From the human T2T-CHM13v2.0 reference genome, Homo sapiens: a stretch of DNA of 64,000 nucleotides. Location of the stretch: NCBI RefSeq assembly GCF_009914755.1, contig NC_060938.1. The stretch is one strand, 5' to 3'. Numbering within the stretch: position 1 is the stretch's first letter; each line of letters starts with the position of its first letter. Both the position numbers and the translations under genes were made by a program. The notes under the pieces were generated by a model. The model was not told the DNA's origin. It saw only the letters and a program-made list of their open reading frames with translations, and made no database searches. Below are positions 5,082 through 38,196 of the stretch, in pieces.

Positions 5082-5137
5082 TCTGTTGGCAACAGAAGCA
5101 TTATTTGGTCAAGGGATGAAATTTACAGGAACCCCAA
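5082..5137 (+). pseudogene. Putative unnamed vestigial TRAJ relic between TRAJ53 and TRAJ52
   Basis: ggttgtg heptamer; open frame LLATEALFGQGMKFTGTP; phase-1 gtaaat at the canonical distance from FGXG. Confidence 0.65.
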
Positions 5138-5979
5138 GTAAATGTGCAAAAGCCTGCCCCTAATAGAGACCTCACTTAACCCTACCACTGTGGTCACCGG
5201 GCTGCTCTGTGAGGTCAGAACACCTCAGGTGAGACTGTGGAGTAACCAGATGCCCTGGTTTTCCTGGGTTTCAGGGGTTTTCCAGGACAAAGGTCATTCT
5301 TTGCTAAGCCCAGAATGATCCCCAGGATAGTTAATCACCGTAAGAAGGCACAGATAAAAACTTTTTTCTGTGAGCTACTACTTACATTTCACCAAATTCA
5401 AGACTGACAAAAAAACTACGTTGTGTGAAAGCTCAGTTACATGTGCCCATCATTTTTATTTCTTATGCTAGGGCATGAAGGGAAGCTCAGGAGATCCTGT
5501 TTCATGAGGCTACAGTCTAAATCTCATCTAATTCTAGTCAGTCTCCAAAAAGCTGAACACTCTCCTCTTGTCTCCTTGTAATCAATTCATTGTCATCAGA
5601 AATGTGTGACACCTCGAGGGGAGGGGAGGACGTGTCTTGAAAACTGATCAGAGAAATTGTCCTGAAAATGATGCTGTAAAATGGAAATGAGACCTTTAGA
5701 AAGAGAGATGCTGAACATGAGAAATCAGTAAGCCTCAAGACAAAAACCAGAGGAAATGGAGAGAGATGGGAGGCAGGAAGCCGGACCTCGGGGGACGCAG
5801 CAGGTCAGTGTCCCAGGACCAGAGGTGGAAATGGTCTTCCAGCCTTTGGTGGGATGAAACTGAGCCTCACAGACCCAGGCCCCTTTGGGTGAGTTTATTC
5901 TCCCCAGAATTAAAAGAGGAGGAAGTCTGCGAGCTTCAGAAGTCCCCCTAGGGTTCTTGTAAAGGCCTCCAGTGCAGTG

Positions 5980-8404: not shown

Positions 8405-9116
8405 GTAAGTGTCCCTGGGGTGCTGCCTGTGGAGTGCGCTGGGGCTAACAGTCTCATACATTAGGGCTTAAATGACTGTGCAGATGGCATCGTGGTTGAG
8501 GACACAAAACTGAGAGAATCGAGATACATTGACTCTGATCAGAAAAAAAGGTCACGGAATAGCAAACATAGGTTTAGTCCTTAAAAGGTAGCATAGATAA
8601 CATGGGACTTGAACGTGGCAATTTGAAAAACAACCTGTGGTCTATCAGCACGTTCTCACTGCACACGGGGGATAAACAGGGGTGGGGGAATAAGCAATGG
8701 ACATTGCATGATAGGGGTGCTAGGGAAATGAGGCAGGTCAGGAAGAAGGAAGGTGATCAGAGCCTCATACGGAGTTAATCTAGAGAAGATGAATTGTTCC
8801 ATAAGTTTCACAAAGAAATAAAGTCCAAAGATATAATAAGAAGTCCTGATTAAAATCCACTTCAGAATCATATGATCATCAGGAGAGAAATTAAGTCTTA
8901 AAAGAAAAAGAAGTTTTTAAATGTAGGTCCATAAAACAAATGGACCTACACCTTTAATTAGACAGCAAGCAGCACAAGATGCACGTTAGCCTTCCTTTTA
9001 ATCCCCTCTCAGGAGGAATCAGTCCCTCCAGCTGCACATGGTCACAGCTGCTCTAAGCCCTGGAGCTCCTTCCCAGTAATACCCTTGCTCCTGTGCCTGC
9101 ACAGGGAAAGGAGATG

Positions 9117-9143
9117 CCTGCCTGCCTGCCTGCCTGCCTGCCT
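9117..9143. repeat. (GCCT)n microsatellite upstream of TRAJ49
   Basis: Direct reading. Confidence 0.9.
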
Positions 9144-9161
9144 ACCGGTCTGCCTTTTGGT

Positions 9162-9295: not shown

Positions 9296-9486
9296 GTAAG
9301 TCAAAGAAAATTTTCCATCACCATTGTGTTGAGCAAACCCTTTAAACTGCAGAAAGAGCTGTCAAAGTCTGCTACTCTATTTCTCTGCTTCTAGGTATAA
9401 CTTTATCTGGACCAGAGTAAAGAGGCCCCCGACCCACCCCGAGAATGATTTATGCTTGGACAGGTCTTTATTTCATTCCTTGAACT

Positions 9487-9666
9487 ATCTATCTGTCTAT
9501 CTATCTATCCAGCTATCTATGTATCTATCTATCTATCATCTATCTCAGAAATAGTTGTTTTTAACAGTTGATTCTGTGCCTCACCCAAATTGTCATTAAC
9601 TAAATGCAGATGTGCTGCCACACTGATAAACTTCATTGGAAAAAAAGAAAAAACCAAACCCAGAGA
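9487..9666. repeat. Left arm of inverted repeat flanking TRAJ48, including (TATC)n
   Basis: 9547-9666 is the reverse complement of 10856-10975 with 4 mismatches. Confidence 0.9.
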
Positions 9667-10242
9667 ATGTTCCTTGAACATTCCTGAAGTGGGGGGGCAG
9701 GCGATGTCACTTGCAGTGACAGCTGGCCTCTCTAGCTCACCCCCACATCTGTGCCAACCAGAGAAGCTGGGCCCTTTGTAGCACAAGCCTCAGGAGCAGA
9801 GAATGGAGGGACATTCTCAACTGAGAGGAGAGGGACTAGGAGGCTAGATGGGAAATGAGGTGACTCTACAGAAAATCGAATATGGGATGGTATAAAAGGA
9901 TGAGAAAGATGGCAGGGGGTCCACGATCGCTCTTGTATTTAGACCTGGGGGATGCACTGATAGATACCACCTGGAGAGAGAAAGAGGATTTCTGTTTCCC
10001 TCTGAAGAAAAATGTGGCAGAAAAATCAAAACAGATCGCACATGTCAAGCCTCTCCTAATTACAGCCTTTCATTCTGGTTTCTCTCAGCTGTTCCAGCAG
10101 GAAATGGTAGGAAAGGGTCATTGGTGCCTTTGATGTTGTGGAAGCATTGCAGGAAGGAGATTTGCAAGAAACGGGGCAGGGGCTTGCAGTAGAGTCTGGA
10201 GAGTTTAGAATGATGGTTTTTGCAATGACTTAGAACACTGTG

Positions 10243-10305
10243 TATCTAACTTTGGAAATGAGAAATTAACCTTTGGGACTGGAACAAGACTCACCATCAT
10301 ACCCA
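10243..10305 (+). CDS. TRAJ48: TCR alpha J segment 48
   Basis: RSS ggtttttgc-12-cactgtg (10215-10242); SNFGNEKLTFGTGTRLTIIP; gtaagt. Confidence 0.97.
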
Positions 10306-10855
10306 GTAAGTTCTTCATCCTTGGTCAGGAAATCAGCCTGCATAAGATTCTGGGGATCATAGTAGACATGCAGGCTTAGAGAATTTTCATCTGTCCTTGT
10401 TCATAACTGGTAGAGACAGGTGGCAGCCAAATATCTGAGTTTTCCGGGGGAACTCCAGTCCTGACTATTTAATTCAAAACTAGAAAATATGATTCACAAT
10501 TCTGTTTTTGCTGCTGCCGTCAAGTGCTAATGTGGCATGTGAAGAGAATTCAGGCAGAATGACTGCATCTTCACTTTCATCTTGTGTGATAATTTTAGCT
10601 TTGAGTACTGCAAGTGTTTGGGAGAAATGGTAGAAACATAGAATATCAAAGAGACAAGCAAACCAAGAGACCCAGAGAGGCAGGCAGACGGAACGTCAGG
10701 CAGTATAATTTTACAAAACTAATTCAGTGTTGTGTCTCTCTCTGCAAATGGCAAGGTATCGGGAAAGGTGCTAAGAGCTAGTGCTCCGGGTGGGGCAGGA
10801 TTATCTAAATAGAAAACTAAGCACTGATCTCAGGGGGAAAGTTTAAACTTGGAAA

Positions 10856-11481
10856 TCTCTGGGTTTGGTTTTTTGTTTTTTTCCAATGAAGTTTATCAGT
10901 GTGGCAGCACATCTGCATTTAATTAATGACAATTTGGGTGAGGCACAAAATTAACTGTTAAAAACAACTATTTCTATGCAGCCATAAAAAATGATGAGTT
11001 CATGTCCTTTGTAGGGACATGGATGAAACTAGAAATCATCATTCTCAGTAAACTATCGCAAGAACAAAAAACCAAACACCGCATATTCTCACTCATAGGT
11101 GGGAATTGAACAATGAGATCACATGGACACAGGAAGGGGAACATCACACTCTGGGGACTGTTGCGGGGTGGGGGGAGTGGGGAGGGATAGCATTGGGAGA
11201 TATACCTAATGCTAAATGACGAGTTAGTGGGTGCAGCACACCAGCATGGCACATGTATACATATGTAACTAACCTGCACAATGTGCATAAGTACCCTAAA
11301 ACTTAAAGTATAATAATAAAAAAAAACAACTATTTCTGAGATAGATAAATGATAGAGAGAGGGAGATACTGGATATATATACACAGTTAATGACAATTTG
11401 GGTGAGGCACGGAATTAACTGTTAAAAACAACTATTTCTGAGATAGAGAGAAAGAGAGAGATACTGGATATATATACACAG
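10856..11481. repeat. Right arm of inverted repeat, interrupted by L1 and partly tandem-duplicated (11387-11481)
   Basis: Direct reading against the left arm; ttaatgacaatttgggtgaggcac...aacaactatttct occurs twice. Confidence 0.88.
10976..11321 (+). mobile_element. 5'-truncated L1 3' end (L1PA2/L1PA3-like)
   Basis: L1 ORF2 tail and 3'UTR (gggagggatagcattgggag...acttaaagtataataa), poly(A), 16-bp TSD aaaaacaactatttct at 10960-10975 and 11322-11337, TT/AAAA site. Confidence 0.95.
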
Positions 11482-33754: not shown

Positions 33755-34432
<678 letters not shown>

Positions 34433-34547
34433 CCAAAAGCCATTTTTAAATACATTGCAGGTTTCTATTTAATGTTGTTATTCATTTTGATTTGCCCAAG
34501 TAATACATTAAAATTTCTCATTGTAAACCATTCAAATTACAGATAAA

Positions 34548-34864
<317 letters not shown>

Positions 34865-36965: not shown

Positions 36966-38196
36966 TAATGATAAACATCATCTCTAACCCACAGCAGAGC
37001 CTTTGTTTGGCCCCTGGGGCTCTTCTGTCAAGGTTCTGTTGTGCATCAGCAGCAGAGCTGGAATTGGGGGGAGGGTGGAGAATGTCAGCCTGTTCTATGA
37101 AATTCTTCACCTGGGATTTGAAAGTGGAAATACAAAGAATCCTGACTAATTTAAATACAAAATCATCCAAGTGTCAGAGGCAGGGGAGAGGTTTCTGCAG
37201 AGAGCTGCATAGCTGGGATCCTCAAGGCTACACACACACGCTTGGAGCAGGGATGCGGTTCACAGGATGGCAGGGCAAAGGTTGCAGAACTGAAACCTTG
37301 TACTTCCCCATCACCAAAATGACCCCAGCATGATTTCCTTTAAGGTGTCCCGAGCCCCTTCCCAAAAGACAGGCTCCCCATGTGGAGGGGCAATGACAGA
37401 GGGAAGATGGAAACTTTATGGGAAGGGCGATCTATCCCAAGGTTGTCCTTCTCCTCTTCAGGGTAGTGAAGCTCATGAGAAATATGGCTCCTGAAAATAG
37501 CCACTAAATGAAACTCTCCAACCTGGAGGTAGAGGATCAGTAAAGTCTGCAGAGGCAAAATGAGGCAGTTTATTTCAAAGAAAAGAGGTTGAGGGCAAGG
37601 TGGGAGTTAAGTCACACATCTAAATCTGGGAAAGGAAGCATTAAACAGAAGACGGAGGGGCTCGGCTCTCCACCTCCACCAGGATTCAGACCACAGGACA
37701 TGGCTAATACTGCAAGAAGGGAGTTAGGTTAGTGGTAAAACCTTTCTAATAGGTTTTTGAACAGTGAAAATGAGCTGTCAGGAGTAGTTGCCAGGGCACT
37801 TTCTCTAGAGAGTTTTTGAAAGGAGATAGACACCCTGCTATCAGAGGTGATTGGAGTGCAGCCCTGCCTCGAGGCAGGAGGAGAAATGAGAGAACCTCTT
37901 AAAGCCTCTTTCCAGCCCCCAGAGCCTGTCTCCATGAAAAAGGCCCAGGCTCATTAATGCAGAGCTGCATCCTCCAGGACACAGGGGGTTGCTGGGTTGT
38001 TAAGTTTGGAACCTTTGCCGGCTTAGTGGTTACCAAACTCCTTTTGTTCTCAAGACTTGACTTGATAAATGGGCTGGCTTTATCCCTTTAAAGCCAAAAA
38101 CACAGGTTCTGAGTGCTGTGTTGTTTGTGGTGTTGAGATGCCCAGGCTGGAGGGAGGAAGCTCTAGGGGGTTTTTGCTGAGCCCAGAAACACTGTG

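What the first reader, a model, noticed from the sequence alone, without database searches (positions are those of the whole stretch)
9487..11481. High-identity inverted repeat bracketing exactly one J gene (TRAJ48)
9547-9666 is the reverse complement of 10856-10975 with only 4 mismatches in ~120 bp. Homology continues through the GATA-type microsatellite beyond the L1. The ~1.2 kb loop holds the TRAJ48 RSS, exon and donor. Inference: (i) arm-to-arm recombination could invert TRAJ48, turning it into an inversional or non-productive substrate; (ii) pre-mRNA could fold to loop out or mask the TRAJ48 donor or attract ADAR; (iii) gene conversion may keep the arms alike. I do not recognise the arms as a known interspersed repeat.
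Basis: partly seen in the sequence, partly recalled or inferred. Interest (0 to 1): 0.7.

Follow-up and report, generated by a model that had tools for sequence, protein, structure and literature searches.

The report
Dead J gene copied backwards
The mirror-image repeat around the T-cell receptor gene TRAJ48 is real; it is likely an unlisted, dead J gene segment plus a backwards copy of it that DNA-break repair likely pasted in 1.2 kb away in an ape ancestor, and it probably has no function today.

Summary
The inverted repeat is real: 9547-9666 vs 10856-10975, 4 mismatches in 120 nt. A genome-wide search finds only local copies. (1) The right arm is likely an unannotated relic TRAJ segment between TRAJ48 and TRAJ47. 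It has a 12-RSS-like signal with intact CAC, a 63-nt J-like body reading FG*GTKLTVK, stop codons and no donor. A position matrix scores it 27.3 bits (0 of 150 shuffles reach that), but nhmmer gives only E=0.021. (2) The left arm is the inserted copy: 184 nt, a 10-bp target-site duplication and a 3-nt fold-back filler. Human TRAJ49-48 spacing exceeds the bat's by 188 nt against 194 predicted. This fits the known repair-mediated duplication class, likely of ape age. A partial tandem copy and a later L1 insertion hit the same relic. The functional ideas get little support. Joining to TRAJ48 deletes the left arm, so it cannot mask that donor in TRAJ48's own mRNA. Two long-read catalogues list no inversion or large variant here. 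The three copies are equidistant, so there is no conversion signal. The remaining lead is RAG use of the relic signals.

The parts
9476..9485 (+). Target-site duplication, copy 1 (10 bp)
   Evidence: Identical to 9670-9679; a 10-bp repeat so placed arose in 34 of 20000 random positions
9486..9669 (-). Inserted inverted copy, 184 nt: GATA-type tail 9486-9546, high-identity arm 9547-9666, 3-nt filler 9667-9669
   Evidence: human minus bat TRAJ49-48 spacing is +188 vs 194 predicted
9619..9646 (-). Inverted copy of the relic's 12-RSS-like signal (CAC intact, heptamer 6 of 7, nonamer 5 of 9)
   Evidence: RSS matrix 13.0 bits, best minus-strand site in the window
9556..9618 (-). Inverted copy of the relic J body (FG*GTESTVK)
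   Evidence: Combined score 16.5 bits; next minus-strand site -2.1
9665..9683 (.). 8-bp fold-back at the inner junction that can template the 3-nt filler; 2-nt microhomology with the donor at 9665-9666
   Evidence: chance 189 of 20000
9670..9679 (+). Target-site duplication, copy 2
10215..10311 (+). TRAJ48 with its 12-RSS (10215-10242), exon (10243-10305) and donor; intact and in the normal orientation
   Evidence: Annotation
10856..10975 (+). Right arm (R1), the likely donor of the insertion
10876..10903 (+). 12-RSS-like signal of the relic J
   Evidence: 13.0 bits; 3 of 34 real TRAJ RSSs score lower in leave-one-out
10904..10966 (+). Likely unannotated relic TRAJ segment, 63 nt, FG*GTKLTVK, in-frame stops, no GT donor
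   Evidence: Matrix 27.3 bits vs 0 of 150 shuffles; nhmmer 10.2 bits, E=0.021; best donor score -10.4
10976..11321 (+). Young 5'-truncated L1 3' end with poly(A); 16-bp TSD at 10960-10975 and 11322-11337
11338..11386 (+). GA/TA-rich tail of R1, homologous to the left GATA microsatellite
11387..11481 (+). R2: tandem partial copy (about 95 nt) of the relic's 3' half and tail, without the RSS

Best explanation
The right arm is likely a long-dead, unannotated TRAJ segment, and the left arm is a 184-nt inverted insertion with a 10-bp target-site duplication that was likely copied from it during germline DNA-break repair in an ape ancestor; the pair is probably a neutral scar. Shown: the arms, the flanking 10-bp repeat, the 3-nt filler inside an 8-bp fold-back, the L1 with its 16-bp TSD, the tandem copy, and the stops and missing donor shared by all copies. 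Inferred steps: (1) A staggered break 180 nt downstream of TRAJ49. (2) One end primed on the opposite strand 1.2-1.4 kb downstream and copied about 180 nt (synthesis-dependent annealing or polymerase-theta-type end joining). (3) The end folded back locally, added 3 nt and rejoined. (4) The tandem copy R2 arose at about the same time, perhaps in the same event, since both new pieces end near the same point of the tail. (5) The L1 entered R1 afterwards. The changes were likely tolerated because they hit a dead J and intronic DNA.
For: Only local copies genome-wide. TSD, filler and microhomology at the junctions. Human-bat J spacings agree (r=0.993; 15 other intervals differ by +18 +/- 41), except TRAJ49-48 (+188, insertion predicts 194) and TRAJ48-47 (+372; L1 alone 362, L1 plus tandem copy 457). 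Pace 2009 proximal duplications: mean 162 nt, apparent peak distance about 1200 nt (flagged by the authors as possibly an artefact), and 2 of 39 breakpoints with microhomology plus TSD plus filler. The relic has the orientation and the commonest length of the array's J genes and outscores annotated pseudogene TRAJ51 (27.3 vs 25.6). The left copy lacks the L1, and its tail fits R1's tail better than R2's (53.5 vs 41.5). No structural variant was listed at the locus.
Against: No primate orthologue or empty site could be examined, so age and order are inferred. nhmmer supports the relic only weakly (10.2 bits, E=0.021; best reversed-sequence hit 7.6). With the donor included, its score drops to 9.9 against 26.1 for TRAJ51. 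All 34 real J genes score higher in leave-one-out (minimum 33.2). No parent J was identified. Neutrality is inferred from missing evidence of function and was not tested. Two 'all primates' duplications in Pace's chr14 rows are only 4-5% diverged, so an older age is possible. The bat-human gene matching rests on spacing alone.
Confidence: 0.72

Rival explanations
1. Same origin, but the relic 12-RSS signals are still cut by RAG. The right copy would act as a non-productive decoy J, and the inverted left copy as a substrate for inversional joins.
For: The CAC and 6 of 7 heptamer bases are intact, and the RSS matrix score of 13.0 exceeds 3 of 34 real TRAJ signals. In mouse Tcra-Tcrd about 1% of junctions go to off-target sites, mostly convergent CAC motifs (PMC4995090 passages).
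Against: The nonamer matches only 5 of 9, against 6-9 in the 8 real J signals printed. The left copy points the wrong way for the convergent joins that dominate. No 23 +/- 1 spacer gives better than 6 of 9. No human junction data were seen.
Confidence: 0.12
2. The arms matter as RNA: in germline transcripts and in pre-mRNAs rearranged to TRAJ61-49 they would pair, be edited by ADAR, and loop out the TRAJ48 donor as a competitor.
For: The arms pair fully in both the minimum-energy and centroid folds of 9485-10980; duplex -193 kcal/mol. Two of the four differences leave an A opposite a C, a context recalled as favoured for editing.
Against: TRAJ48-rearranged alleles have lost the left arm. The inverted Alu pair at 34099-34857 gives -464 kcal/mol, so duplex RNA is not special here. 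The left arm appears absent in bat by spacing, yet bat's positional TRAJ49 and TRAJ48 are listed functional. Some editing is likely as a by-product, which is not a function.
Confidence: 0.07
3. The arms recombine or convert each other, giving a recurrent TRAJ48 inversion or concerted evolution.
For: 97% identity and 1.2 kb distance.
Against: The longest perfect run is 46 nt, and the three copies are equidistant. No inversion among 18 chr14 rows, which include inversions of 866 and 874 nt. TRAJ48 is in the normal orientation in CHM13, and TRAJ49-48-47 offsets are identical in GRCh38. The test for conversion has low power (4 variable sites).
Confidence: 0.04
4. The duplication is as described, but the J-likeness of the arm is chance in AT-rich DNA.
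For: Weak nhmmer score; no donor; no identifiable parent; bat, cattle and sheep have no annotated J at this place.
Against: 27.3 bits against a maximum of 9.9 in 150 composition-preserving shuffles, -2.1 on the minus strand and -7.7 in 127,116 bases of other loci. Scores hold against local composition (core 17.9, RSS 10.0). Signal, spacing and orientation all fit together.
Confidence: 0.05

Closest known systems
Repair-mediated duplications (Pace et al. 2009, PMC2671141; abstract, passages and chr14 rows of Table S1 seen)
   Same: Single nearby donor under 5 kb away, 184 nt, microhomology plus TSD plus filler, no poly(A), low divergence
   Different: The acceptor is not in a masked transposon, so their pipeline would likely not see it. 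None of their chr14 rows seen (places 1-60 of 63, the whole under-5-kb sheet) lies near the TRAJ array (hg18 position recalled). The donor here is a relic J.
[quoted passage not shown]
   Same: Junction filler sits in an inverted repeat motif of at least 4 bp within 30 bp of the join
   Different: Described at induced breaks with short inserts; here it caps a 180-nt copy from 1.2 kb away, and the enzyme is unknown
Annotated human TRAJ pseudogenes (TRAJ51, TRAJ55, TRAJ60)
   Same: RSS-like signal, FGxG-like body, stops or lost donor, + orientation in the array
   Different: Absent from RefSeq and from the IMGT gene order; more decayed at the donor; present as one whole, one inverted and one partial copy
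Cat TRAJ62-TRAJ65 (PMC6945721, passages seen)
   Same: Extra TRAJ genes stated to have no human or dog orthologue
   Different: Their positions and sequences were not visible, so orthology is only a lead
Polymorphic inversions between inverted repeats (PMC10150506, passages and Table S1 chr14 rows seen)
   Same: Inverted arms around a short spacer
   Different: Arms are only 120 nt; no inversion is catalogued here

Membership tests
Repair-mediated duplication (proximal class) | Insertion of at least 50 nt found at one other genomic place within 5 kb | tested here: met
   184 nt; donor 1189 nt away; the only other match is the donor's own tandem copy
Repair-mediated duplication (proximal class) | Break-repair junction marks (microhomology, filler, deletion or TSD) | tested here: met
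   10-bp TSD, 3-nt filler, 2-nt microhomology
Repair-mediated duplication (proximal class) | No poly(A/T) tail | tested here: met
   The insert ends in a GATA tail homologous to the donor's tail
Repair-mediated duplication (proximal class) | Empty orthologous site in an outgroup | not testable with these tools
   No primate sequence is held; indirect support from bat spacing, +188 vs 194
TRAJ segment (relic) | 5' 12-RSS | tested here: inconclusive
   Heptamer 6 of 7 with CAC, 12-nt spacer, nonamer 5 of 9; 13.0 bits
TRAJ segment (relic) | F/W-G-X-G motif at J-like distance from the RSS | tested here: met
   FG*G 29 nt after the heptamer, giving 63 nt, the commonest length (8 of 35)
TRAJ segment (functional) | Open frame and GT splice donor | tested here: not met
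   Three in-frame stops in R1; best donor score -10.4 vs median 11.0
TRAJ segment (relic) | Orthologue in another species | not testable with these tools
   None annotated in bat, cattle or sheep; cat extras not visible
Interspersed repeat or DNA transposon ends | Dispersed copies elsewhere in the genome | tested here: not met
   3 of 3 matches local; no repeat library was available
L1-mediated retrocopy (left arm) | Poly(A) tail and TT/AAAA target site | tested here: not met
   Neither is present at the left insert; both are present at the L1 in R1
RAG transposition or RAG-cut product | Breakpoints at the heptamer border, about 5-bp TSD (recalled) | tested here: not met
   Breakpoints at 10856, about 10921, 10975 and 11386, none at 10903/10904; TSD is 10 bp

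The most novel reading that the evidence does not exclude
Humans carry a hidden 62nd TRAJ, the orthologue of one of the cat-only TRAJ62-65 genes. Its RSS and its ape-specific inverted twin are still RAG substrates that drain V-J joins into dead ends and seed rare inversional rearrangements that RNA-based repertoire sequencing cannot see.
Probability: 0.1. Interest if true: 0.6.

Novelty: new member of a known kind. Interest (0 to 1): 0.32.

Why it matters
If the best reading holds, the value is modest. It adds an unlisted J fossil (with two weaker candidates) to a heavily curated locus and gives a clean, datable example of three germline insertions stacked on one dead gene. If the relic signals are still cut by RAG, DNA-level repertoire and leukaemia breakpoint studies are missing a class of non-productive and inversional TCR-alpha joins, and the prediction is testable at two exact coordinates.

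Tried and rejected
Dispersed repeat family: rejected. L1 retrocopy or transduction as origin of the left arm: no poly(A), no endonuclease site. RAG-made event: breakpoints do not touch the heptamer. Inversion with staggered breaks as origin: TRAJ48 keeps the array's orientation. Parent J of the relic: not found. TRAJ48 aligns without gaps at 54 of 98, TRAJ21 scores slightly higher globally, TRAJ42 is best in the core (24 of 34, median nearest-neighbour identity 25), and flank scores single out none. A 23-spacer reading of the signal: 4 of 9 at spacer 23, 6 of 9 at 22. Paper searches: TRAJ48 plus inversion gave 5 papers, none on this by title and abstract start. Six possible names for an extra J gave 0. 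Relic or unannotated TRAJ gave 2 and 2 papers, none describing it by listing, and two of them were checked by passage. The editing search was uninformative: 15 of 6,851 listed, none mentioning TRAJ48. Most subscription papers, including the 1994 sequencing papers of this region (recalled), are outside the library, so absence from print is not shown. Cat supplements held no gene table as text. Earlier scan notes were not available.

Full report
Observation. 9547-9666 is the reverse complement of 10856-10975 with 4 mismatches in 120 nt (at right-arm positions 10875, 10922, 10948, 10952) and 1189 nt between the arms. A whole-genome search with the arm returned 3 matches from 3 candidates: itself, the right arm, and a 55-nt partial copy at 11385-11439 (the tool skips very common words). 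A search with 9300-10975 found only GATA-microsatellite matches elsewhere, with 40 of 140 candidates scored. The arms are therefore a local duplication. That the loop holds exactly one J is expected: 62% of 1189-nt windows in this array do.

Anatomy of the right side. The right arm ends at a 346-nt element with a poly(A) end and a 16-bp target-site duplication (10960-10975, 11322-11337). It has 862 genome candidates, the 39 scored others 96-98% identical. It differs from the column majority of 19 near copies at 7 of 335 sites (2.1%, 95% interval 0.8-4.3%). After it come a GA/TA-rich tail (11338-11386) and a tandem copy, about 95 nt, of the arm's 3' half plus tail (R2, 11387-11481).

The left arm is the inserted copy. 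The segment 9486-9669 is flanked by a 10-bp direct repeat (9476-9485, 9670-9679), which arose in 34 of 20,000 random placements. Three extra bases at the inner junction lie in an 8-bp fold-back (9665-9683) that shares 2 nt with the donor end and 3 nt with the target repeat; such a fold-back arose in 189 of 20,000 placements. Independent support comes from the published bat gene table (PMC8514952, supplement part 1). Matching genes by spacing, 17 human and bat J-to-J distances correlate at 0.993. Fifteen differ by +18 +/- 41 nt (range -52 to +96). TRAJ49-48 differs by +188, against 194 for the insertion. TRAJ48-47 differs by +372, against 362 for the L1 alone or 457 with R2. I compared only TRAJ61 to TRAJ43, and TRAJ51 has no bat match. 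The left copy has no L1 and its tail aligns better to R1's tail than to R2's (53.5 vs 41.5), so it was likely copied before the L1 arrived.

The arm is likely a relic J. On the + strand the right arm reads as a T-rich nonamer-like stretch, a 12-nt spacer, a heptamer with intact CAC (10876-10903), then 63 nt ending FG*GTKLTVKN, with two more stops upstream in frame and no GT donor. A position matrix trained on 34 annotated TRAJ genes (RSS plus 34-nt core) scores it 27.3 bits. That is above pseudogene TRAJ51 (25.6) and level with the lowest J genes outside the training set. Nulls: maximum 9.9 in 150 local shuffles of the window, -2.1 for the best other minus-strand site, -7.7 in 127,116 bases of other loci. 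The scores survive a local-composition background (core 17.9, RSS 10.0). Results against: all 34 training genes score 33 or more in leave-one-out; nhmmer finds only the core, 10.2 bits, E=0.021, with a best reversed-sequence hit of 7.6; with the donor added it scores 9.9 against 26.1 for TRAJ51, though the best unrelated minus-strand site is -14.8; and no parent J stands out. I put the relic reading at about 0.9. The FG*G stop and the lost donor are shared by all three copies, so it died before the duplications. The IMGT human order runs TRAJ48 straight to TRAJ47 (PMC8945572 passage). Cattle and sheep have one gene each for both (PMC7824213 passage), and bat has none between them. The cat has four TRAJ genes, 62-65, stated to lack human and dog orthologues (PMC6945721 passage); their places could not be seen.

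Age. The arms differ by 3.3% (0.9-8.3%). In the 55 nt shared by all three copies the distances are 3, 2 and 3, each copy carrying private changes. Among Pace's chr14 proximal rows, human-chimp events differ by 0-3.1% (4 rows), those shared with orangutan by 0-7.0% (4 rows), those shared with rhesus by 6.0-13.4% (4 rows), and the 9 all-primate rows by 4.1-17.3%. An ape age is most likely; an older one is not excluded.

Mechanism. The insertion fits the repair-mediated duplications of Pace et al. (PMC2671141 passages): 824 human cases with the donor within 5 kb, mean 162 nt, no poly(A), and 2 of 39 inspected junctions with microhomology, TSD and filler together. The fold-back meets the snap-back criteria of synthesis-dependent end joining (PMC5728401 passages). 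The inferred course is a staggered germline break, copying from the opposite strand 1.2-1.4 kb away, a local fold-back, and rejoining. The enzyme is not known. The left copy and R2 end near the same point of the tail, so one event may have made both; microsatellite drift prevents a decision.

Inversion: the longest perfect run is 46 nt, well under the roughly 200 nt recalled for efficient homologous recombination. The T2T inversion catalogue of 41 samples has 18 chr14 rows, none between 14.17 and 28.74 Mb, though it holds inversions of 866 and 874 nt (PMC10150506 Table S1). The targeted long-read TRA study of 11 samples has 17 rows starting or ending within GRCh38 22,489,000-22,491,999, all 1-3-nt indels; only DEL and INS types were seen, so it says little on inversions (PMC9903726 Table S1). 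RNA: the arms pair in the predicted fold, but joining V to TRAJ48 deletes the left arm, so only germline transcripts and those using TRAJ61-49 hold both arms. An Alu pair at 34099-34857 forms a stronger duplex. Editing as a by-product is plausible and untested. Conversion: no signal, at low power.

What remains open. The relic's signal scores above 3 of 34 real TRAJ signals, and RAG uses convergent CAC sites in about 1% of mouse Tcra-Tcrd junctions (PMC4995090 passages). The right copy faces the V genes correctly; the left copy does not. A low rate of dead-end joins to the right copy is plausible, but an effect on the repertoire is unlikely (0.12).

Verdict. This is a real feature and a new member of known kinds: a repair-mediated duplication of a likely unlisted J pseudogene. 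My searches found no description, but they miss most subscription papers. Interest 0.32.

Noticed in passing
window 5104-5143 (+), between TRAJ53 and TRAJ52: Second unannotated J-like relic: core FGQGMKFTGTP with a donor-like end but no RSS. Three-part score 12.2; two-part 8.7, a level 1 of 150 shuffles reached; nhmmer 3.4 bits.
   Followed up: partly
window 37190-37274 (+), between TRAJ27 and TRAJ26: Third candidate relic: RSS-like 14.9 bits without CAC, weak core, no donor; borderline.
   Followed up: partly
window 9705-9721: 7-bp hairpin with a 3-nt loop, 26 nt from the insertion site.
   Followed up: no
window 9472-9485 and 9679-9689: The reconstructed empty site is itself a near-tandem 10-11-nt repeat, which may have helped the break or the rejoining.
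   Followed up: no
window 34099-34857: Closely spaced inverted Alu-sized pair (376 nt apart, 82%), the strongest predicted RNA duplex among those tested.
   Followed up: partly
TRAJ61 to TRAJ43 versus bat: J-to-J spacing is conserved between human and horseshoe bat (r=0.993), so spacing alone can flag lineage-specific insertions; bat lacks a TRAJ51 match.
   Followed up: partly
window 9115-9155, 9694, 11320, 11443-11448: The only indels seen near the locus in 11 long-read samples fall in the TGCC repeat, a G run, the L1 poly(A) and the R2 tail.
   Followed up: yes
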